Below, one piece after another: positions 40,125 through 46,673 of a stretch of DNA of 64,000 nucleotides. How positions within the stretch are numbered: the first letter of the stretch is position 1; each line of letters starts with the position of its first letter. The stretch lies in the sequence record MH791411.1; one strand, given 5' to 3'. This stretch comes from Escherichia phage Ecwhy_1. The position numbers and the translations under genes were made by a program. Under the pieces are notes generated by a model. The model saw only the letters and a program-made list of their open reading frames with translations, was not told where the DNA came from and did not search any database.

Positions 40125-40152
40125 ATTATATCACCTTTTTCCAAGCTGTCCC
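40125..40152 (-). promoter_or_regulatory. Sigma70-type promoter with extended -10
   Basis: Minus strand reads GGGACA-N16-(TGa)TATAAT: -10 at 40125-40130, -35 at 40147-40152. Confidence 0.5.
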
Positions 40153-40153
40153 G

Positions 40154-40187
40154 CTGAAAAAAGTAGAGAACGGAATTTTCCGTTCTC
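40154..40187 (-). terminator. Rho-independent terminator after VWA gene
   Basis: GAGAACGG-loop-CCGTTCTC hairpin followed on the minus strand by a U-tract (plus-strand A-run 40157-40162). Confidence 0.55.
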
Positions 40188-40199
40188 ATTATTTAGTAC

Positions 40200-41609
40200 T
40201 TAGCTACGTTGACGCTTTTTGTCAGCTTCATATTCGTAGTGTACAGTTTCGCCAAATGGTGCTTGTTTGTTAGGATTACTGTGGATAACAAACAGTGTCT
40301 TACAGTAATCAGGATCACCCCATGACTGCCACGGCTCACCATCTGTAAACATAATAAGCTGTTTAGGCTTATAGTTGTCATGCTTCATATGAACCCATAC
40401 TGCTTCAAAGTCAGTACCACCACCACCTTTCACTGGATATTCGAGAATCTTACTCTCTTCACCAGTTTTGTAATCTTTCACAGTATAAACTTCAGTATCG
40501 AACGTCATGATACGGATTTTAAATTGTTTAAACTGCTTAGTGATACCCAGTACTTCACTGATGAAATCACGGAGCATATCTTCAGAGATAGAACCGGATG
40601 CATCTAGTGCAATTGCAATATCAATATCATCATCTGGTTTCATACCAGGGAAGATTGGATTCCCGTAGAATGAACCAGAACTACCAAAACCAGCACCCCA
40701 TGAACGACGATTAGGATTTTGATAAGTTGCATCAGACTTCAACCAGCTACGCAGTGTGCGGTGAAGTTTGGAACGCCAGTCAATCTTAGGTTCTTTGAAG
40801 TTGTTAATCATACGTGCGATTTCAGCAGGAGTACCACCTGCACGAGCAGCATTCATCATTGCTGTTTTGAAATCATCCATATAATCACGTTTTTGTTTAT
40901 CACTTGAACCACCTTCTTGACCTTCTTGTGGAACGTCATGCTGGTCGATTGTTGTACCTTTGCCTTTACCATCTTTGATATCACCAAAAGTACCGCGTGA
41001 TTTACCTTCACCCTCACCACTACCAGCCTGTGGATTTCCTTCACCTTCTCCGTCTTGATCCTGCTTATCTTCTTCTTCGAGAATGTTATAAATCTCTTCA
41101 GCAGTCATACCATCGTACTTTTTATCGTACAGCCATTGGCTTTGGATTTTACCAATTTTATCACGAACAAGAATCTGGTTAATTGCATAGTCAGCAGCAC
41201 GGTTATAACGCTGCGGGTCACGCATACCACGACGCAAGAAGTGGTCATATGCACAGTGAAGAATCTCATGACAGATAACTGCAATCAGGTTTTCATCGGT
41301 CAAACCTTCTGTCATTTCTTTAAGTTGTTCTTCAGTTACTTCAGGATGTTTCTCACGAATTGCTTCTTCGTATGCTGACTTTTTGGATTGGTCCTGAATA
41401 CCCATGATGAATTCTACGTTGTAGAATAAATGCTTACCATCTACAGCCAAAGTACGACACCATGTGTTGTTTGCAACTGGACGCAGACGAGAAGCCAGTA
41501 CACCAAAGAATGGGAATGTTAGCATTAAAGATGTGCGAGCTAAGATCAGACGATCTTGACATTCTTTCTGGAGAGCCGGAGTAACATCACTGAAACGTTT
41601 ATCTGACAT
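40200..41609 (-). CDS. VWA-domain protein with N-terminal HExxH metallopeptidase-like domain (MoxR partner, DUF2201-like)
   Basis: HEILHCAYDH motif in the N-terminal half and MIDAS motif DASGS in the C-terminal half; directly downstream of the MoxR-like ATPase. Confidence 0.75.
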   Translation of the reverse strand: MSDKRFSDVTPALQKECQDRLILARTSLMLTFPFFGVLASRLRPVANNTWCRTLAVDGKHLFYNVEFIMGIQDQSKKSAYEEAIREKHPEVTEEQLKEMTEGLTDENLIAVICHEILHCAYDHFLRRGMRDPQRYNRAADYAINQILVRDKIGKIQSQWLYDKKYDGMTAEEIYNILEEEDKQDQDGEGEGNPQAGSGEGEGKSRGTFGDIKDGKGKGTTIDQHDVPQEGQEGGSSDKQKRDYMDDFKTAMMNAARAGGTPAEIARMINNFKEPKIDWRSKLHRTLRSWLKSDATYQNPNRRSWGAGFGSSGSFYGNPIFPGMKPDDDIDIAIALDASGSISEDMLRDFISEVLGITKQFKQFKIRIMTFDTEVYTVKDYKTGEESKILEYPVKGGGGTDFEAVWVHMKHDNYKPKQLIMFTDGEPWQSWGDPDYCKTLFVIHSNPNKQAPFGETVHYEYEADKKRQRS

Positions 41610-41635
41610 TTGTATTTCCTCGTTTAGTTAAGATA

Positions 41636-41661
41636 AAAGAAGGATACCATGTGGTATCCTC
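41636..41661 (-). terminator. Hairpin/terminator between the MoxR and VWA genes
   Basis: GGATACCA-CA-TGGTATCC near-perfect palindrome followed on the minus strand by UUCUUUUAU; may act as an attenuator within the operon. Confidence 0.45.
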
Positions 41662-41684
41662 CTTGTCAACACTCTTTTTAATTA

Positions 41685-43013
41685 TTAACCAAGAGAGCGT
41701 GCTTTACGTACTAGGTCAGAGTACTTCATAACGAAGTCTTTAAACGCTGGTACATCTTTAATCGTAATCGCTACTTTATGAAGCGTGATGGTACGAATCG
41801 CCAGTACTGCCAGTTCTGCTTGAGTTGCAGAGAAGTTATGGTCTAGGAAGGTGATGAAGTTGTTGCACAGCTTACCCCAATCTTCCACTGGTAGACGTTG
41901 TTCTTGCTTCTCATTGTAGAGGTCGATAATTTTGTAAACCAGATTCAGAGTGATGAAGTAGTTCGCGGAAATATCAAGCGAAGCATCAATCTCTTTAATC
42001 TCACCCTGTAGGATGGACATGGTATCTGGTAGTTTAGCTACGTTATCAACATACTCGATGTATTCAGTTGCTACGCCTTCACCAACACGACCTGCAATCA
42101 TCGCACGGAACACTTCTTTATCAATGTTCTTAACTTTCTTCAGATCTTCGTAGCGTGCTACTGCTTCCCATGAACGTGGAGAAGTACCACCACAGTGAGA
42201 AGGATCTTGTGGGCTAAGGGTGTTGAAGTGTTTAGCACCAGTGTTGTTGATGAACGCTACAGTTGCTGGGTTCAAACGCTTACCAATCGCATAATCGTTA
42301 ATCCAATCTTGATGATAAGGAATCATTTCGATGTGGGTCATACGGTCACGCAGTGGTGTAGCTAGAGAGAACGTTACACCGCCATCAGTTTCACGGTTAC
42401 CTGCTGCGAGAATCAGTGCAGTCTTAGGTAGCTTCATCTCACCAACACAACGGTCGAGGATTAGCTGATAAGACGCTGCCTGTACAATCGGCATTGCAGA
42501 GTTGATTTCGTCAAACAGAATAACACCTTTCCAATCTGGAGACAGTTTCAGTACTTTAGGTGCTGCCCACACAACTGCTGTTTCAGCGATGTAATCTTGT
42601 GCACTAGCCAGTTCAGATTCAATCAGTTGCTTACCATCCATATCAAGGAACACTTTCTCTGGAACTGGGATACCGCGAAGGTCACTTGGTTCAATCTGAG
42701 ACAAACGGAAATCGATAAAGTTAGTGTCTTGGTCGATTAGTTTGGCTTCAAACGCTGCCAGTTCACGGCGAAGTTGATCAGCATTTTCAGTATCAGCTTC
42801 GATTTGTTGTTTCATGAACTCAATTTTTGCCACGTTATCTTTACGCAGTGGGTAGTTCTCATCAGCGTATTGACGTGCGATAGCAGATTTACCGATACCA
42901 GGGCTACCCCAAATCATCAGGCTATCTTGAATCATGTCAGCCAGTGCCATTGCTTCTTTAGCTTTCTTAGGAGTCAGTTTTACGTTCAGGATATCGTTGT
43001 TTTGAGTAGACAT
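41685..43013 (-). CDS. MoxR/CbbQ-type AAA+ ATPase
   Basis: Walker A GSPGIGKS, Walker B ILFDEINSA, sensor AAGNRE; RBS AAGGAAA upstream of the ATG. Confidence 0.8.
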   Translation of the reverse strand: MSTQNNDILNVKLTPKKAKEAMALADMIQDSLMIWGSPGIGKSAIARQYADENYPLRKDNVAKIEFMKQQIEADTENADQLRRELAAFEAKLIDQDTNFIDFRLSQIEPSDLRGIPVPEKVFLDMDGKQLIESELASAQDYIAETAVVWAAPKVLKLSPDWKGVILFDEINSAMPIVQAASYQLILDRCVGEMKLPKTALILAAGNRETDGGVTFSLATPLRDRMTHIEMIPYHQDWINDYAIGKRLNPATVAFINNTGAKHFNTLSPQDPSHCGGTSPRSWEAVARYEDLKKVKNIDKEVFRAMIAGRVGEGVATEYIEYVDNVAKLPDTMSILQGEIKEIDASLDISANYFITLNLVYKIIDLYNEKQEQRLPVEDWGKLCNNFITFLDHNFSATQAELAVLAIRTITLHKVAITIKDVPAFKDFVMKYSDLVRKARSLG

Positions 43014-43053
43014 GTATATTTTCCTTTTGTTGGATAAAATCGTTTAGGTTTCT

Positions 43054-43082
43054 ATTATAGCCAATCCGTGGGCAAAAGTAAA
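43054..43082 (-). promoter_or_regulatory. Candidate proximal promoter of MoxR operon
   Basis: Minus strand reads CTTTAC-N17-TATAAT; -10 at 43054-43059. The -35 is weak. Confidence 0.35.
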
Positions 43083-43123
43083 GGAACTGTGTTAAAAGAA
43101 TTTTTAACTTATCAGTTCCTTTG
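43080..43123 (-). promoter_or_regulatory. Long inverted repeat in the MoxR 5' leader
   Basis: Perfect 10-bp arms AAAGGAACTG / CAGTTCCTTT separated by a 24-nt AT-rich, itself partly palindromic, loop. Confidence 0.4.
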
Positions 43124-43184
43124 TTACTTCATGAATCATCCGTGTATTTAAAAAGGCATTTCTCTTTGCCGTCTTGATGTGGTC

Positions 43185-43212
43185 ATTATATCACATCGTT
43201 CAGGCTTGTCAA
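43185..43212 (-). promoter_or_regulatory. Sigma70-type promoter (tandem copy 1)
   Basis: Minus strand reads TTGACA-N16-(TGTGa)TATAATGACCAC; -10 at 43185-43190, -35 at 43207-43212. Confidence 0.6.
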
Positions 43213-43276
43213 CAACTTTTTTATTTCTTTTTCAATCTCACATCTTGTGATTTTGAAAACTTGCTTCGTGGTGGTC

Positions 43277-43304
43277 ATTATAACACATCATTCGGCGTTG
43301 TCAA
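43277..43304 (-). promoter_or_regulatory. Sigma70-type promoter (tandem copy 2)
   Basis: Minus strand reads TTGACA-N16-(TGTGt)TATAATGACCAC; about 45 bp is a direct repeat of copy 1, 90 bp away. Confidence 0.6.
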
Positions 43305-43329
43305 CATCTTTTTTTCTTTATTTTCGAAG

Positions 43330-43707
43330 CTACATGTGCATCGAAAATAACATTCTAAAATCATCACCACACAATGTTAACTCTGTAACTATCATTGCGT
43401 CCGAGAGGTATATGTACTGCCCTTCTACATAGTAGGGTGAAGTACATATCCTATCAAGCGATGTAAAGATTATAGAACTTTTGAACTCTCTTTGCAAGGG
43501 GATTTTTGTAAATTCGTAAAGAATGTTTTCTTTACAAATTGTATATCCAAACTTGCTAAGTCTTAAACCACCGCCAGTTCTGAAATTTTCAAAAATTGAC
43601 ATCAGAAGCATACGGTCTGTTAATTCAGCGTCTGATCCATGTACTTCTCTAACTTTTAAAAGTACATCGTTTTGAAATTCAGTACTGTTGTGTGGTTCAG
43701 GAATCAT
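43330..43707 (-). CDS. Hypothetical protein
   Basis: 125-aa ORF; no motif recognised. Confidence 0.5.
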   Translation of the reverse strand: MIPEPHNSTEFQNDVLLKVREVHGSDAELTDRMLLMSIFENFRTGGGLRLSKFGYTICKENILYEFTKIPLQREFKSSIIFTSLDRICTSPYYVEGQYIYLSDAMIVTELTLCGDDFRMLFSMHM

Positions 43708-43710
43708 AAA

Positions 43711-44103
43711 TTACATCCCCACGAAACCCTGTCTTGCTGCATATGAAGGAGCATCTTTAACTTTATAGTCTTGGACACCATCTTTACCAATTTTCGGACC
43801 CATATCTTTGGTTCCGAAGCAGCAATCAGTGGATTCATCAACTTCTTCAGTACTTTCATCATTATATCGAACATCCGATAAAATGTCACACGCTTTTTGA
43901 AGCTTTTCTACGATTTCTTTTTGATCTTCACCTGATTTAACCTTATCCACAATGTGGATAAGGCATTCGGTGATATCTTTAAGTAAATCGGTGGCAACAG
44001 CATCAGAAGGAGTCTCAACTGCAAAACTTTCTTCTTCAGTAGATTCTTCACTAGAAGTGATTTCATCTAATGCTTCAACCAATTCACGATAATTATATCC
44101 CAT
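43711..44103 (-). CDS. Acidic hypothetical protein
   Basis: 130-aa ORF rich in Glu/Asp/Ser (STEEESF, ESTEEVDEST). Confidence 0.55.
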   Translation of the reverse strand: MGYNYRELVEALDEITSSEESTEEESFAVETPSDAVATDLLKDITECLIHIVDKVKSGEDQKEIVEKLQKACDILSDVRYNDESTEEVDESTDCCFGTKDMGPKIGKDGVQDYKVKDAPSYAARQGFVGM

Positions 44104-44104
44104 C

Positions 44105-45097
44105 TTATTTGTCCCCTAGAAATTGTTGATATTTCTTCTGGAGACTTTCGAAAATGTCTTCGACTTCTTCATCGCTTTCATCTTCTAGTTCTTCGTTACC
44201 TTCCACTGACTCATCACTCTCATTAACATTGAGTGGGTTGTCACCTAGAGCAGTACCTGGAAACTTAGGTTCAAATTTGTGAACACGGTTCTCGTTACCG
44301 TCATTGTCATAGTACTCTGGTTCAGGACGATTGTCAACATCTTCATCAACGACACGTCTCCAGTAGAACTTGTTACCCTTGGTAATAACAACAAAGTGGT
44401 CACCTTCTACACCATTAGTTTTAGCTTGACCGTCACGAACAGCATCAGCTTCAGTGTTGTAAGGACCAAAATCAGTACTGTCACCTTGTTCTTCATCTTC
44501 AGAGATGGTTAGGTCTGGTAGGAAAGTGTTTTCTTCAACTTTAACTTCAGTATCTGGGTTACCTTCTACTGAATATTCATCTTCTGGTTCGTCTTGAAGA
44601 CCAGCTAGAGATAGCATACGACTGAAATCGAATTCTTCTTCGATGATTTCTTCTTCTTCTTCCTCTTCTTCAACTGATTCTAGTTGAGGTTGACCGGAAA
44701 GATCTAAAGAAAACTCTTCTTCATCTGCAACACCAGGCTCTTCGAACTCTGCATCCATACTTACTTCTTCAGAATCACCACCAAAATCACCAGCTTCAGC
44801 AGATAGTGAGTCAGCAGCTACTTCCAATGGGTCTTCAACTGGTGCATCAATCGCACCATCCATTGTACCACCAACTTCTTCTTCAGCACCCGCACCAATG
44901 GAATCCATGTCGAGTGGAGCGATTGGTGGTAGAGAAGGGGTCATAGACCCCATAGAAGGAACTGGAGCAGCAACAGGAGAAGCTTGACGCTCTGCTTGAC
45001 CAGCTAATGCAAGCATACGAGATAGTGTTTCTAGATCTTCAGATTCTAGACCTGCGATATCGATTTTAACTTGTGCTTCATTAATTTTTTTAGCCAT
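44105..45097 (-). CDS. Highly acidic protein with poly-Glu tract
   Basis: Contains EEEEEEEEIIEEEFDF and long Asp/Glu-rich segments; RBS AAGGA. Confidence 0.6.
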   Translation of the reverse strand: MAKKINEAQVKIDIAGLESEDLETLSRMLALAGQAERQASPVAAPVPSMGSMTPSLPPIAPLDMDSIGAGAEEEVGGTMDGAIDAPVEDPLEVAADSLSAEAGDFGGDSEEVSMDAEFEEPGVADEEEFSLDLSGQPQLESVEEEEEEEEIIEEEFDFSRMLSLAGLQDEPEDEYSVEGNPDTEVKVEENTFLPDLTISEDEEQGDSTDFGPYNTEADAVRDGQAKTNGVEGDHFVVITKGNKFYWRRVVDEDVDNRPEPEYYDNDGNENRVHKFEPKFPGTALGDNPLNVNESDESVEGNEELEDESDEEVEDIFESLQKKYQQFLGDK

Positions 45098-45119
45098 TTT
45101 AAATAAATCCTTTTAGTTA

Positions 45120-46673
45120 TCAATCATTCTTATTTAATGATTTTAAAATTTGCACTGTTTCATCCTTTTTACCAGATAGTAAAATGTCAGCAGCAATTAG
45201 AGAAACCTCATCACCACGCGTTAAGAGTACTGTAATTTTCTTAGCGTAAGGTGATTCTTTAATTCGTGAAGCCAATGATTGAACTTCATCACCAGGAGCA
45301 GGAACTTCAGGTTCTGGCTCTGATACAGGTTCTGGTTCTTTAGTAGGTTCAGCTTTTGGTTCAACTACATCAGTACTTGATACTTCAGCATCTACTTTCT
45401 CTTCAGGTTCTTCTTCTTTCTTATCAGCATGTTCTGCATCATAACGAGCAAGAATGTCATCAGCAGTTGATTTTGGAATCAATTTACCTTCTGCACTGAT
45501 AAAGCGGTTACCACCGATATAAGAATACTCTGTGCCTTTCTTAGATTTTACTTTAGTTCCGATTTTCATTGCACCAGAACTGTTATGGCGAATTATATCA
45601 CGTTGAGCAGCACGTTCAACACTTTTTGCAGCACTAGAATTTAGTTGTTTTTTAGTTTCTACATCAAACCATGCATTTTTTTGTTTAATGTATGTTTTAC
45701 CTTTATTTGAAGTAATGCGGTAACCATGTGGAACCACAACAGATTCAGTTTCTTCAATCTCTTCATCTGCTTCATTAATGGATTCTTTTGTTGCGAATAC
45801 TGGCTGTTTTACTGGTTGTTTAGGTTGTTCTGGCTTTTCACCTGAACCAAAACGTTGTTCACCTGATTCATGATCACCAGTTAGTGAAGGAAAATCACCA
45901 GGGTTAGCCTTAACAAATTGCTGATATGCATTAAAGATTACATGTGCATTTTGTTCTGGAATTACAACATTACCATCATTATCACAAAATTCTTTACCAT
46001 TCCATTCTGAACGAGTATTACCTTGTACTAATGTAGATTTAATTGGAATTAGTTTGTTTTTTGGTGCTAATTGGCGAGCAATACGCATACCTTCATCGGA
46101 AAGTTTACGTGTCATTGCTGGGTCAACTGGACGTCCAGATTTTGCATCAACAAAACGGTGATTTTTAGGGATGAATTTAAATCCACTAACTTCCATACCT
46201 GCTGGAATAGAAATATCATCAGCATATGGTGGAAGGATATAGAATTTTAGGGAGTTCCATTCTTTTTGTAGAGTTTCTTTTGAAACATTATATACACGGT
46301 GGTCATCTGCCATTAGTTCAGTGATAATTTCACTTTCAGTTAGTAGAATTCCATCTTTAGAATTGAAACGATTTTCACCAAGAAATGTACACTCTTTACC
46401 TTCAAGAATATATTTTTTACCAATTTTATATTCACTAGAAGATAGATTGTGCTCAACAATCTGTTGTCGAGCACTTGCGTACATGGATGGGTATTTTTTA
46501 GGGTCTACCATTAACATATTATTGTCGTTAAACCAGAAACCTTCTAGAAATACATATTTGCCACCAGTGTGAGAAGTATATACATATCCATTAGGTACTG
46601 TGGTAGTTTCAGTACTGAAAAAATTATCCATGTGTTGATTCTCCTTAAGAAAGCATACGCAAAAGTTGTTCAC
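45120..46673 (-). CDS. Hypothetical protein with internal sequence repeats
   Basis: Repeated modules (PNGYVYTSHTGGKYVFLEG / PHGYRITSNKGKTYIKQK; KIGKKYILEGKECTFLGENRF / KIGTKVKSKKGTEYSYIGGNRF) and a Pro/Glu-rich linker. Confidence 0.55.
   Translation of the reverse strand: MNNFCVCFLKENQHMDNFFSTETTTVPNGYVYTSHTGGKYVFLEGFWFNDNNMLMVDPKKYPSMYASARQQIVEHNLSSSEYKIGKKYILEGKECTFLGENRFNSKDGILLTESEIITELMADDHRVYNVSKETLQKEWNSLKFYILPPYADDISIPAGMEVSGFKFIPKNHRFVDAKSGRPVDPAMTRKLSDEGMRIARQLAPKNKLIPIKSTLVQGNTRSEWNGKEFCDNDGNVVIPEQNAHVIFNAYQQFVKANPGDFPSLTGDHESGEQRFGSGEKPEQPKQPVKQPVFATKESINEADEEIEETESVVVPHGYRITSNKGKTYIKQKNAWFDVETKKQLNSSAAKSVERAAQRDIIRHNSSGAMKIGTKVKSKKGTEYSYIGGNRFISAEGKLIPKSTADDILARYDAEHADKKEEEPEEKVDAEVSSTDVVEPKAEPTKEPEPVSEPEPEVPAPGDEVQSLASRIKESPYAKKITVLLTRGDEVSLIAADILLSGKKDETVQILKSLNKND

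What the first reader, a model, noticed from the sequence alone, without database searches (positions are those of the whole stretch)
43014..43329. Complex control region: tandem duplicated consensus promoters plus a long leader hairpin upstream of the MoxR operon
Two ~45-bp direct repeats (43181-43225 and 43271-43315) each carry a minus-strand TTGACA-N16-TGTGnTATAATGACCAC promoter, and a third -10 (TATAAT at 43054-43059) lies closer to the gene. The leader contains a perfect 10-bp inverted repeat with a 24-nt loop (43080-43123). A short palindrome TCACA-N3-TGTGA lies between the repeats. The 316-bp region has no ORF of 60 aa or more and could also encode a small RNA.
Basis: seen in the sequence. 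Interest (0 to 1): 0.6.

Follow-up and report, generated by a model that had tools for sequence, protein, structure and literature searches.

The report
Tandem promoters feeding a conserved leader terminator
In a giant (Rak2-like) E. coli phage, the gap before a MoxR-type ATPase gene holds two duplicated near-perfect host-type promoters that fire into a terminator hairpin and a small GGA-loop hairpin; both hairpins are conserved across the whole phage clade, so this is a real but fairly conventional gene-control region, with one possibly new RNA motif in it.

Summary
The window is a Rak2-like jumbo coliphage, 99.8-100% identical to fEgEco12 and EC.P1. The 316-bp gap separates a virion-protein gene block from an AAA+ ATPase/VWA (MoxR-type) gene pair.

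P1 and P2 are exact TTGACA-N16-TATAAT promoters with TGn and A-rich upstream tracts. The window holds 3 such sites, against 0 in 100 shuffles. They resemble the phage's early-promoter cassettes. The "palindrome" between them is P1's 5' stem-loop.

The "leader hairpin" is the local form of an intrinsic-terminator-like hairpin found at this position in all 18 relatives examined. It is always downstream of an extended -10 promoter and 60-82 nt before the ATG, except in EJP2. A second small hairpin follows it, with an invariant YGGA loop. Both helices covary: 7 of 15 pairs change on both sides, and 0 of 500 shuffles reach the observed score. A covariance model finds one copy per genome, and Rfam has no match.

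Best reading: strong σ70 promoters feed a leaky terminator (attenuator) that also ends the upstream operon. This would give short leader RNAs plus read-through mRNA, and a lineage-specific third promoter bypasses the terminator. A trans-acting sRNA or a CsrA-type role is not excluded. No transcript data exist.

The parts
43277..43329 (-). P1 cassette. A-rich UP-like tract 43305-43329, -35 TTGACA 43299-43304, 16-nt spacer, TGT 43283-43285, -10 TATAAT 43277-43282. Predicted start about 43270.
   Evidence: 12/12 match with TG. The exact pattern is absent from 100 shuffles. Orthologous copies are kept in JNE01 (84% identical) and G17.
43229..43259 (-). Inverted repeat containing TCACA-N3-TGTGA. 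It would form a 5' stem-loop at about +12 to +42 of the P1 transcript and lies just upstream of P2's UP tract.
   Evidence: 14-nt arms, 86% complementary. Folds at -9.8 kcal/mol in the first 45 nt of the P1 RNA. This is analogous to the 5' hairpins (-13 to -14.5 kcal/mol) after 7 of 12 early promoters of the same phage. Outer and inner arms are kept in G17 and JNE01.
43185..43233 (-). P2 cassette. A-rich tract 43213-43233, -35 TTGACA 43207-43212, TGA 43191-43193, -10 TATAAT 43185-43190. Predicted start about 43178, with initial transcribed sequence AUCAAGACGG.
   Evidence: 12/12 match with TG. The start region ACATCAAGACGG is identical to that of an early-region promoter of fEgEco12 (L028:5918) and fits the early consensus TATAAT-agtttACATCAAG.
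43123..43178 (-). 5' part of the P2 leader. Contains a weak hairpin (GGCA...UGCC) and 'site 1', ACACGGAUGA (43136-43147, GGA at 43139-43141).
   Evidence: An A-Y-GGA-U/A motif lies upstream of the terminator in 16 of 18 relatives. The 10/12 match to the CsrA SELEX consensus is at chance level.
43073..43122 (-). Terminator-like hairpin. Arms 43113-43122 and 43080-43089, upper 7-bp stem in the 'loop', U-rich tail UUUACUUUUG.
   Evidence: -14.6 kcal/mol, z = -3.5. Orthologous hairpins of -12 to -18 kcal/mol with 4-7 U in the 10 nt after the stem occur in all 18 relatives. Covarying pairs: GC9/AU7 and CG13/AU2/GC1. Annotated as a terminator in G17 and in the CBB supplement. 94-98% identical to G17 and JNE01, the best-conserved part of the gap together with 43014-43073.
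43060..43073 (-). Small hairpin GCCCA-CGGA-UUGGC directly after the U-tract, with an invariant YGGA loop ('site 2'). In this lineage the stem is weak: 4 pairs plus one mismatch.
   Evidence: Present in 18 of 18 relatives. The stem covaries (pair types GC/UA/CG/AU/GU; AU/UA/CG; AU/GC/UA) while the loop GGA is invariant. In EJP2 it stays next to the ATPase although the terminator has been separated from it.
43054..43082 (-). P3. TTTACT (43077-43082), 17-nt spacer, TATAAT (43054-43059). Predicted start about 43047, which is downstream of both hairpins.
   Evidence: 10/12 match. It is a full extended -10 (TGGTATAAT) in JNE01 and Hallingskeid and is absent from the CBB-, BF- and Munch-type relatives.
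43011..43030 (-). Ribosome-binding region (AAAAGGAAAA, GGA at 43022-43024) and the ATG (43011-43013) of the ATPase.
   Evidence: Read from the sequence. The ORF is 41685-43013.
40200..43013 (-). The controlled genes: AAA+ (MoxR/N4 gp24-like) ATPase 41685-43013 and DUF2201_N/VWA-like protein 40200-41609. A terminator-like hairpin lies between them at 41637-41664.
   Evidence: Pfam and PHROG hits, terminator scan, synteny in all relatives.
43047..43151 (-). Extent of the clade-wide conserved leader RNA motif: site 1, terminator and YGGA hairpin.
   Evidence: Covariance model R1 scores 63.4 bits, E 1.6e-10. The next best hits in the window score 25 bits or less. There is one strong hit per genome (EJP2 only a weak partial hit, 26 bits) and none in fEgEco12 1-50 kb. 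No Rfam family matches, even at E up to 10.

Best explanation
The gap is the transcriptional boundary between a virion-protein gene block and the ATPase/VWA (MoxR-type) gene block. It works as a promoter-attenuator unit.

Two tandem, nearly ideal host σ70 promoters (P1 and P2) start transcription at about 43270 and 43178. Each has an A-rich upstream tract, TTGACA, a 16-nt spacer, TGn and TATAAT. Each also has the start region and 5' stem-loop typical of this phage's early-promoter cassettes.

Both transcripts, and any read-through from the upstream operon, then meet a conserved factor-independent terminator hairpin (43122-43080 plus a U-rich tail), about 60 nt before the ATPase start codon. 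A fraction of polymerases would stop there, giving short RNAs of roughly 105 nt (P2) and 197 nt (P1). The rest would read through into ATPase-VWA mRNA. That mRNA's 5' UTR carries a small hairpin presenting YGGA.

In this lineage a third promoter (P3) directly after the terminator would give unattenuated transcripts that lack both hairpins.

Shown here: the motifs, their non-random occurrence, the duplication and its age, the clade-wide conservation and covariation of both hairpins, and the conserved order promoter -> terminator -> gene.

Inferred, not shown: promoter activity, the fraction terminated, the timing (early or middle), and any regulated read-through.
For: Promoters: 12/12 matches with TG; 3 exact matches in 64 kb against 0 in 100 shuffles.

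Age of the duplication: orthologous copies are more alike (84%, 79%) than the two copies within the genome (70%), so the duplication predates the split from JNE01 and 121Q/G17. The hexamers and the 16-nt spacer are kept in all copies.

Early-promoter kinship: the first 20 kb of fEgEco12 hold 12 TTGACA-N16-TAnAAT promoters with the start region ACATCAAG, and 7 of them have stable 5' hairpins. P2 shares ACATCAAGACGG with one of them, and P1 has its own 5' hairpin.

Terminator: all 18 relatives have an extended -10 promoter abutting the stop codon of the upstream 125-aa gene. It is followed after about 15-140 nt by a hairpin of -12 to -18 kcal/mol with a U-rich tail.

Covariation: 86.7% of cells are paired against 75.9% in shuffles. 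Seven of 15 pairs change on both sides. The covariation score is 0.301 against 0.108 (0/500 shuffles). Slid controls give 23-50% paired.

Independent predictions: the hairpin was called a terminator by ARNold in G17 and CBB.

Contrast within the window: the other intergenic extended -10 promoters have 30-45 nt leaders with no hairpin. Where a terminator is present, the order is terminator -> promoter.

Secondary promoters: lineages independently added a promoter downstream of the terminator, P3 in Asteriusvirus and Hallingskeid and an early cassette in EJP2. This fits a real transcriptional barrier.

Conservation: the gap is as conserved as the flanking genes (85-88% against 81-90%). Terminator 94-98% identical; 43014-43073 97% (G17) and 84% (JNE01).
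Against: There are no transcript data for any enterobacterial Rak2-like phage. Start sites, termination efficiency and timing are therefore all predictions.

The window's hairpin is an atypical terminator. The stem is only 40% G+C, the 23-nt 'loop' forms a second helix, and the U-tract is interrupted (UUUACUUUU). The tool's own terminator scan did not list it.

In this lineage an upstream GAAGUAA can pair with the U-tract.

No alternative anti-terminator structure and no conserved leader peptide were found, so there is no evidence that read-through is regulated rather than constitutive.

The covariation alignment was condensed and registered by hand using the structure, which biases it towards that structure.
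Confidence: 0.6

Rival explanations
1. The promoter-plus-terminator unit is a small-RNA gene. Its product is about 105 nt from P2 here and about 55-65 nt in CBB-type relatives. It acts in trans on host or phage targets, for example through Hfq or as a decoy. The ATPase is then served by read-through or by P3.
For: A strong promoter is followed by a canonical terminator with no conserved ORF between them. The order and spacing are conserved clade-wide. A conserved A-Y-GGA motif and an A/U-rich stretch precede the terminator, and a U tail follows it. EJP2 keeps the promoter-terminator pair even though a new promoter downstream serves the ATPase.
Against: The 5' part is purine-rich and looks like an mRNA leader, not like the pyrimidine-rich seeds of most RBS-targeting sRNAs. 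It is poorly conserved apart from two short motifs, one of which (TTAAGA/TCAAGA near +1) is shared with unrelated promoters. EJP2's version has lost almost the whole 5' part. No Rfam family matches.
Confidence: 0.2
2. The GGA motifs are binding sites for host CsrA or another GGA-specific RNA-binding protein. The motifs are site 1, the YGGA hairpin loop and, in this lineage, the Shine-Dalgarno GGA. The protein would control translation or stability of the ATPase mRNA, or be titrated by the short leader RNA.
For: GGA sits in the loop of a short 3-6 bp hairpin in 18 of 18 genomes, with a covarying stem. Sixteen of 18 fit the ANGGAN hexaloop, and short stems are typical of CsrA/RsmE sites (PMC7652899). 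A second A-Y-GGA site lies 48-74 nt upstream. In the window the SD GGA lies 43 nt downstream. All hosts are Enterobacterales, which have conserved CsrA (established knowledge).
Against: The match to the SELEX consensus RUACARGGAUGU is at chance level: 23 hits with up to 2 mismatches against 23.4 expected. GGA counts in the leaders are not significantly enriched in most genomes. The SD lacks GGA in CBB-type relatives. No CsrB/RsmZ-type Rfam hit. No phage CsrA homologue in this clade. Binding was not tested.
Confidence: 0.12
3. The hairpin is only the terminator of the upstream virion-protein operon. P1 and P2 simply drive the ATPase through it with little loss. The conserved promoter-before-terminator order would then be an accident of a compact ancestral gap.
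For: There is no other terminator between the 125-aa gene and the ATPase. CBB's authors assigned the hairpin to ORF215. In EJP2 the hairpin stays with the upstream gene. The window's version has a weakened U-tract.
Against: A terminator cannot tell where a transcript started, so any efficiency against upstream transcripts also applies to P1 and P2 transcripts. Elsewhere in the window the phage places terminators before promoters. The reversed order here is kept in all relatives examined over deep divergence (ATPase down to 54-60% identity).
Confidence: 0.2
4. The long irregular helix of this lineage is an RNase III processing site, like those between phage T7 early genes. It has about 22-24 bp counting the lower GAAGUAA/UUACUUU extension.
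For: The fold gives 7 + 8 + 7 pairs with internal loops, long enough for RNase III (established knowledge of T7 R1.1-type sites).
Against: The extension and the upper stem are lineage-specific. In most relatives the hairpin is 9-11 bp, which is too short, so this cannot be the conserved function.
Confidence: 0.05
5. The repeats are a neutral duplication remnant. Alternatively, the tandem promoters prime a replication origin, like T7 phi1.1A/B.
For: There is a direct repeat. Tandem promoters followed by A+T-rich DNA recall the T7 primary origin (own knowledge).
Against: Both copies keep perfect hexamers, spacing and TGn since before the lineages split, while the flanks diverged. There is no GC-skew feature at 43 kb; the only turn is at the strand switch near 37-38 kb. 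Most relatives have a single promoter.
Confidence: 0.05

Closest known systems
Tandem strong σ70 early promoters of lytic coliphages (T7 A1/A2/A3; T5 early promoters such as PN25). Own knowledge.
   Same: Several near-consensus host-type promoters in a row, with A-rich upstream tracts, at the head of a non-structural gene block of a virulent phage.
   Different: Here the promoters sit in the middle of the genome at a boundary with virion-protein genes. They are a true duplicate pair with an extended -10. They fire into a terminator within 100-200 nt.
PeSL cassettes (promoter-early stem-loops) of T4-like phages (PMC2839356, PMC4122927).
   Same: Repeated composite units of a consensus σ70 promoter, an AT-rich upstream region and a stem-loop that can attenuate transcription. 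They are proposed to move or duplicate by recombination. This phage has such promoter-plus-hairpin units in its early region. P1, P2 and the EJP2 insertion look like members.
   Different: Rak2-like phages are not T4-type phages. The hairpin lies downstream of the start site, as a 5' stem-loop, and not beside or over the promoter. P1 and P2 are not detectably similar by BLAST to other cassettes in the genome. No recombination product was shown.
Lambda PR'-tR' unit (6S RNA) with Q antitermination, and T4 early-promoter/terminator/middle-promoter arrangements. Own knowledge.
   Same: A strong constitutive promoter followed within about 200 nt by an intrinsic terminator, so that downstream genes depend on read-through or on a second promoter placed after the terminator.
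   Different: No Q-like factor, qut-like site or MotA-box was identified. Read-through may simply be constitutive.
CsrA/RsmA-controlled leaders such as glgC (PMC7652899).
   Same: A GGA in the loop of a short hairpin upstream of the ribosome-binding site, plus further GGA sites within bridging distance.
   Different: No above-chance match to the SELEX consensus. The hairpin follows a terminator. No binding data exist. The SD site is absent in half of the clade.
ARNold-predicted terminators already annotated at this position in G17 (MK327931) and CBB ('Torf215').
   Same: The same orthologous hairpin.
   Different: Those annotations treat it as a plain gene-end terminator. They do not note the promoter upstream of it, the covariation, the YGGA hairpin or the clade-wide conservation.

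Membership tests
σ70 consensus promoter with extended -10 and UP element | -35 TTGACA and -10 TATAAT separated by 16-18 nt | tested here: met
   Both P1 and P2 score 12/12 with a 16-nt spacer. There are 0 exact matches in 100 shuffles.
σ70 consensus promoter with extended -10 and UP element | TGn immediately upstream of the -10, and an A/T-rich tract at -40 to -60 | tested here: met
   TGT and TGA precede TATAAT. The tracts AAAATAAAGAAAAAAAG and AAAAAGAAATAAAAAAG lie upstream of the -35.
σ70 consensus promoter with extended -10 and UP element | Mapped transcription start or promoter activity | not testable with these tools
   No transcriptome of a related enterobacterial phage was found.
Intrinsic (Rho-independent) terminator | Stable G+C-containing stem with a short loop | tested here: inconclusive
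   In the window the stem is 10 bp with 4 G-C pairs, and the 23-nt 'loop' forms a second 7-bp stem (-14.6 kcal/mol). The tool's scan did not list it. In CBB-, BF-, L016-L027-type relatives the stem is 10-11 bp with a 4-6 nt loop, which is canonical.
Intrinsic (Rho-independent) terminator | U-rich tract directly after the stem | tested here: met
   UUUACUUUUG in the window. The relatives have 5-7 U in the 10 nt after the stem, and CUUUUUUG in several.
Intrinsic (Rho-independent) terminator | Structure kept by compensatory change | tested here: met
   In helix 1, 4 of 10 pairs change on both sides and 89% of cells are paired.
Intrinsic (Rho-independent) terminator | Measured termination | not testable with these tools
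   Needs in vitro transcription or Term-seq.
PeSL (promoter-early stem-loop) cassette | Repeated composite of a consensus early promoter, an AT-rich upstream tract and a stem-loop | tested here: met
   Twelve promoters lie in fEgEco12 1-20 kb, 7 of them with stable 5' hairpins. P1 has a hairpin; P2 has only a weak one.
PeSL (promoter-early stem-loop) cassette | Found in T4-type phages, flanking ORFans in hyperplastic regions, and mediating recombination | tested here: not met
   The host genome is Rak2-like. The locus flanks conserved core genes. The only hint of mobility is the differently placed cassette in EJP2. So it works like a PeSL but is not filed as one.
CsrA/RsmA binding site | GGA in the loop of a short hairpin (ANGGAN) | tested here: met
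   18 of 18 genomes have YGGA in a 3-6 bp hairpin, and 16 of 18 have A before the Y.
CsrA/RsmA binding site | Similarity to the SELEX consensus RUACARGGAUGU beyond chance | tested here: not met
   The 10/12 match at 43136-43147 is one of 23 hits in the window, against 23.4 expected.
CsrA/RsmA binding site | Protein binding and CsrA-dependent expression | not testable with these tools
   Needs a gel shift and csrA genetics.
Any Rfam RNA family | Covariance-model match | tested here: not met
   Only noise hits (17 bits or less, E above 3) lie in 43014-43329.
Lambda-type promoter-terminator unit with antitermination | Strong promoter followed by a terminator before the genes | tested here: met
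Lambda-type promoter-terminator unit with antitermination | Dedicated antiterminator protein and its loading site | not tested
   No search for Q/N-like proteins was made, and no recognisable site was seen.
RNase III processing hairpin | About 20 bp or more of helix, conserved | tested here: not met
   About 22 bp in this lineage only. Most relatives have 9-11 bp.

The most novel reading that the evidence does not exclude
The clade-wide leader element (site 1, terminator, invariant YGGA-loop hairpin) may be a previously undescribed cis-regulatory RNA. It would tie expression of the phage's MoxR-type ATPase/VWA pair to a host GGA-binding regulator such as CsrA. The abundant short terminated RNA would then double as a phage-encoded decoy for that regulator.
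Probability: 0.12. Interest if true: 0.7.

Novelty: new variant of a known kind. Interest (0 to 1): 0.4.

Why it matters
Transcription of Rak2-like jumbo phages has not been studied experimentally, although these phages are candidates for therapy.

This locus offers a compact test bed of four parts:
- two of the strongest-looking σ70 promoters in the window;
- a conserved attenuator placed, unusually, after the promoter;
- a covarying GGA-loop hairpin that is not in Rfam;
- natural variants that rearrange these parts (one promoter, two promoters, or a promoter moved past the terminator).

If read-through proves to be regulated, or the GGA hairpin binds a host protein, it would show how these phages time or tune a conserved MoxR-type chaperone pair. 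If not, the region is still a well-documented example of promoter duplication and a promoter-terminator boundary element. The promoters themselves may be useful as strong portable parts.

Tried and rejected
- Rfam scan of 41000-45500 at E up to 10 gave only noise.
- Leader peptide or attenuation by translation. Small ORFs overlapping the hairpin exist in some genomes (11 codons in the window, 28 in CBB). They are absent or differ in frame and length in the others, and Y in AYGGA is C in many, so there is no conserved ATG (sequences).
- CsrA consensus significance test was negative. A phage-encoded CsrA was also sought by tblastn: 88 phage records hit, none of those listed is Rak2-like (one Erwinia record among the unlisted hits was not checked).
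- PA5oct, the only relative with RNA-seq. The region around its ncRNA003 is not syntenic with this locus, so the thread was dropped.
- Papers on fEgEco12 and Sharanji say nothing on promoters or terminators.
- MAFFT and cmalign alignments put the window-group left arm out of register. I therefore used a hand-registered, condensed, ungapped alignment. One-nucleotide indels in RaK2, Hallingskeid, EJP2 and L013 were left unpaired, which is the conservative choice.
- CRP site idea for TCACA-N3-TGTGA. The half-sites are in the wrong order and spacing for TGTGA-N6-TCACA.
- Origin of replication. There is no skew signal at the locus.
- T4-type late promoter TATAAATA in front of the ATPase. There is none anywhere in the window.
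- A second copy of the leader element was sought in the window and in fEgEco12 1-50 kb. None was found.
Full report
**What the window is.** The 2.5 kb around the finding is 99.8% identical to Escherichia phages EC.P1, fEgEco12, WPEC3/5 and BF17. It is about 85% identical to Asteriusvirus phages (121Q, PBECO4, G17). The 651 bp around the gap are 100% identical to EC.P1, fEgEco12 and WPEC3/5 and 69% identical to Klebsiella phage RaK2. It is therefore a Rak2-like jumbo myovirus.

All genes from about 37.7 to 63.7 kb are on the minus strand. Read on that strand, the gap 43014-43329 follows a run of virion-protein genes that ends with a 125-aa protein of unknown function (43330-43707). The gap precedes three things:
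- a 442-aa AAA+ ATPase (41685-43013; PHROG 1297, weak Pfam AAA/AAA_3 hits, 'N4 gp24-like');
- a 469-aa DUF2201_N plus VWA-like protein (40200-41609);
- further downstream, small genes, a DUF2493 protein and thymidylate synthase.

'MoxR operon' is thus a fair label, because an ATPase with a VWA partner is the classical MoxR pairing.

**Checking the observation.** Every listed feature is there.
- Direct repeat: 55 nt (43179-43233 and 43271-43325), 82% identical, 92 nt apart.
- Promoters: each copy holds a 12/12 TTGACA/TATAAT match with a 16-nt spacer and TG before the -10 (43304-43277 and 43212-43185).
- Chance: the exact pattern TTGACA-N13-TGnTATAAT occurs three times in 64 kb (the third at 13886-13913) and never in 100 shuffles.
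- Third -10: TATAAT at 43059-43054 has TTTACT 17 nt upstream.
- Inverted repeat: arms 43080-43089 and 43113-43122 are perfect, with 23 nt between them.
- Palindrome: TCACA-N3-TGTGA is the core of an inverted repeat with 14-nt arms at 43229-43259.

**The hairpin is a clade-wide, covarying, terminator-like element.** I took the gap from 9 annotated relatives and 9 further distinct IMG/VR contigs found with an ATPase alignment. ATPase identity to the window goes down to 54-60%. All have the same gene order. All have the same layout, in this order:
1. An extended -10 promoter (TGTGATATAAT or TGTGGTATAAT) abuts the stop codon of the 125-aa gene. In CBB-type phages the TGA stop codon is part of the motif TGAAACG-N11-TGTGGTATAAT. 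That is the 'divergent RpoD-like' promoter class described for CBB (supplement).
2. About 15-65 nt after the start (about 140 nt in RaK2) comes a hairpin, AAAGCACUG-loop-CAGUGCUUU or a variant. Its energy is -12 to -18 kcal/mol.
3. A U-rich tail follows, for example CUUUUUUG.
4. The ATPase ATG lies 60-82 nt further on, apart from EJP2 (240 nt).

Distant relatives have one promoter and a gap of 137-184 nt. The Asteriusvirus group and the window lineage have two promoters and a gap of about 315 nt.

The window's stem GGAACUG/CAGUUCC differs from GGCACUG/CAGUGCC and AGCACUG/CAGUGCU by compensatory changes.

**The second hairpin.** Directly after the U-tract every genome has a second, small hairpin. 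Its stem varies: GCUUA/UAAGC, ACAAA/UUUGU, UCAGA/UCUGA, CCAAA/UUUGG, and GCC(C)A/U(U)GGC in the window. Its loop, YGGA, is invariant.

**Covariation test.** I used a hand-registered, condensed, ungapped alignment of 16 distinct sequences. On it the two helices give:
- 86.7% of cells paired, against 75.9% in column shuffles (0/500 reach the observed value);
- 7 of 15 pairs with changes on both sides, in 28 cells;
- a covariation score of 0.301 against 0.108 (0/500);
- 23-50% paired when partners are slid by 1-3 columns.

Two caveats apply. The sequences are related, and I set the register using the structure.

**Uniqueness.** A covariance model of the element finds one strong hit per genome, always in this leader. 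In the window the hit is 43047-43151 at 63 bits, and the next best scores 25 bits or less. There is no hit in the first 50 kb of fEgEco12. Rfam has nothing here.

**Prior annotation.** The hairpin has been called a Rho-independent terminator before. It is annotated in the G17 record and listed as 'Torf215' in the CBB supplement. Neither source mentions a promoter upstream of it.

**The promoters.** P1 and P2 are old paralogues.
- Orthologous copies are more alike (window P1 to JNE01 P1 84%; window P2 to G17 P2 79%) than P1 and P2 within the genome (70% over 70 nt).
- All copies keep TTGACA, the 16-nt spacer and GAUGUGn. Only G17's P1 has TACAAT.
- RaK2 has only the P1-like copy.

The first 20 kb of fEgEco12 are packed with small genes. 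Twelve TTGACA-N16-TAnAAT promoters lie among them. They share the start region agtttACATCAAG, and 7 of 12 have a stable hairpin from about +7 (-13 to -14.5 kcal/mol).
- P2's start region ACATCAAGACGG is identical to one of these.

P1 and P2 therefore look like members of the phage's early-promoter cassette family, but with the TGTGnTATAAT -10 region of the ancestral ATPase promoter. This recalls the PeSL cassettes of T4-like phages.

EJP2 supports a modular view. There the ancestral promoter and terminator stay next to the 125-aa gene. An early-type cassette with the start region CACATCAAGACG has been placed after the terminator. The YGGA hairpin stays about 55 nt before the ATPase ATG. The terminator thus travels with the end of the upstream operon, and the YGGA hairpin travels with the ATPase leader.

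**Why the order matters.** Elsewhere in the window, intergenic extended -10 promoters (59144, 55535, 40133, 13894) have 30-45 nt leaders with no hairpin. Where a terminator is present (before 55535, and at 40187-40166), it comes before the promoter.

Only here is the order promoter -> terminator -> gene, and that order is kept across the clade. A terminator cannot distinguish transcripts by origin. Whatever it does to read-through from the virion-gene block it also does to P1 and P2 transcripts.

Three lineages have independently put a promoter after it. P3 is TATAAT here and a full TGGTATAAT in JNE01 and Hallingskeid. EJP2 has the early cassette. This fits a real barrier.

The gap is as conserved as the flanking genes. 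It is 84.7% identical to G17 and 87.8% to JNE01, against 89-90% for the ATPase and 81-86% for the 125-aa gene. The terminator (94-98%) is among the best-conserved parts, as is the sequence after it in G17 (97%; 84% in JNE01), and the P1 upstream tract is the least conserved.

**Most likely mechanism (confidence about 0.6).** Two tandem strong σ70 promoters feed a leaky intrinsic terminator. The same terminator ends the upstream operon. The products would be:
- short leader RNAs of about 105 nt and about 197 nt (folds, z = -2.9 and -3.6);
- a read-through ATPase-VWA mRNA that carries the YGGA hairpin;
- P3 transcripts that bypass both hairpins.

Motifs, conservation, covariation and architecture are shown. 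Activity, termination efficiency, timing and any regulation are inferred. No transcript data exist for this phage group.

**Rivals.**
- A trans-acting small RNA is plausible (0.2). However, the 5' part is purine-rich, weakly conserved and nearly absent in EJP2.
- A CsrA-type protein site is attractive. GGA in the loop of a short hairpin, ANGGAN, is the textbook CsrA/RsmE target. A second A-Y-GGA lies upstream in 16 of 18 genomes, and the SD carries GGA in this lineage. Against this, the 10/12 match to the SELEX consensus at 43136-43147 is at chance level (23 hits against 23.4 expected). GGA is not enriched overall. No phage CsrA turned up in this clade. I give it about 0.12.
- 'Only a gene-end terminator' (0.2) does not explain the conserved reversed order.
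- RNase III processing fits only the lineage-specific long form of the helix.
- An origin of replication or a dead duplication is unlikely.

**Novelty and score.** All the parts are of known kinds: consensus promoters, a promoter duplication, an intrinsic terminator or attenuator, and a protein-site-like hairpin. The hairpin had already been auto-annotated as a terminator in two relatives.

What is new:
- the demonstration that promoter -> terminator -> GGA-loop hairpin is a conserved, covarying leader unit across the Rak2-like clade, absent from Rfam;
- the natural rearrangements of this unit;
- the identification of P1 and P2 as duplicated early-type cassettes.

It is a solid, testable regulatory locus, not a surprise. 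Interest is 0.4, and the novelty class is a new variant of a known kind.

Noticed in passing
window, whole (both strands): The T4-type late-promoter octamer TATAAATA does not occur at all in 64 kb, although about 7 copies are expected from shuffles. CBB-type relatives were reported to use ATAAATA before structural genes. This could be avoidance, or this lineage may use a different late motif.
   Followed up: no
window 40125-40187 (-): A perfect 9-bp bidirectional terminator-like hairpin (40166-40187) is followed at once by GGGACA-N16-TGATATAAT (40152-40125). The same GGGACA plus extended -10 form recurs at 59163-59136 and in the Munch-type ATPase promoters. It is probably this lineage's counterpart of CBB's TGAAACG promoter class.
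   Followed up: partly
window 41637-41664 (-): A 12-bp hairpin with a U-rich tail lies between the ATPase and the VWA gene. The equivalent position is annotated as a terminator in Munch and listed as 'Torf216' in CBB. The ATPase gene is therefore bracketed by hairpins on both sides.
   Followed up: partly
window 13886-13913 (-): This is the third exact TTGACA-N13-TGnTATAAT promoter of the window. It sits in a divergent gap (13872-13943) and has a short hairpin-free leader.
   Followed up: no
L028 (fEgEco12 1-21000): The early region has dozens of genes under 100 aa. Many are preceded by a near-identical cassette: TTGACA-N16-TATAAT-agtttACATCAAG plus a GGGGAGAA...UUCUCCCC 5' hairpin. This is a PeSL-like repeated unit that has not been described for Rak2-like phages.
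   Followed up: partly
L008 (EJP2) 1962-2279: The gap is rearranged: ancestral promoter -> terminator -> extra hairpin -> inserted early-type promoter cassette -> YGGA hairpin -> ATPase. It is a natural 'promoter moved past the terminator' variant.
   Followed up: partly
window 43318-43350: A 13-nt inverted repeat (92% complementary, 7-nt gap) spans the stop codon of the 125-aa gene. No U-tract follows it on either strand. It is not kept in G17.
   Followed up: no
window 40200-41609 and 43330-43707; L004 (RaK2): Several public annotations look wrong. The DUF2201_N/VWA protein is labelled 'HNH endonuclease' (PHROG 1314 and fEgEco12). The 125-aa protein is labelled 'transcriptional regulator HdfR' without any Pfam support. 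The RaK2 ATPase start is annotated 60 nt downstream of the conserved ATG.
   Followed up: partly
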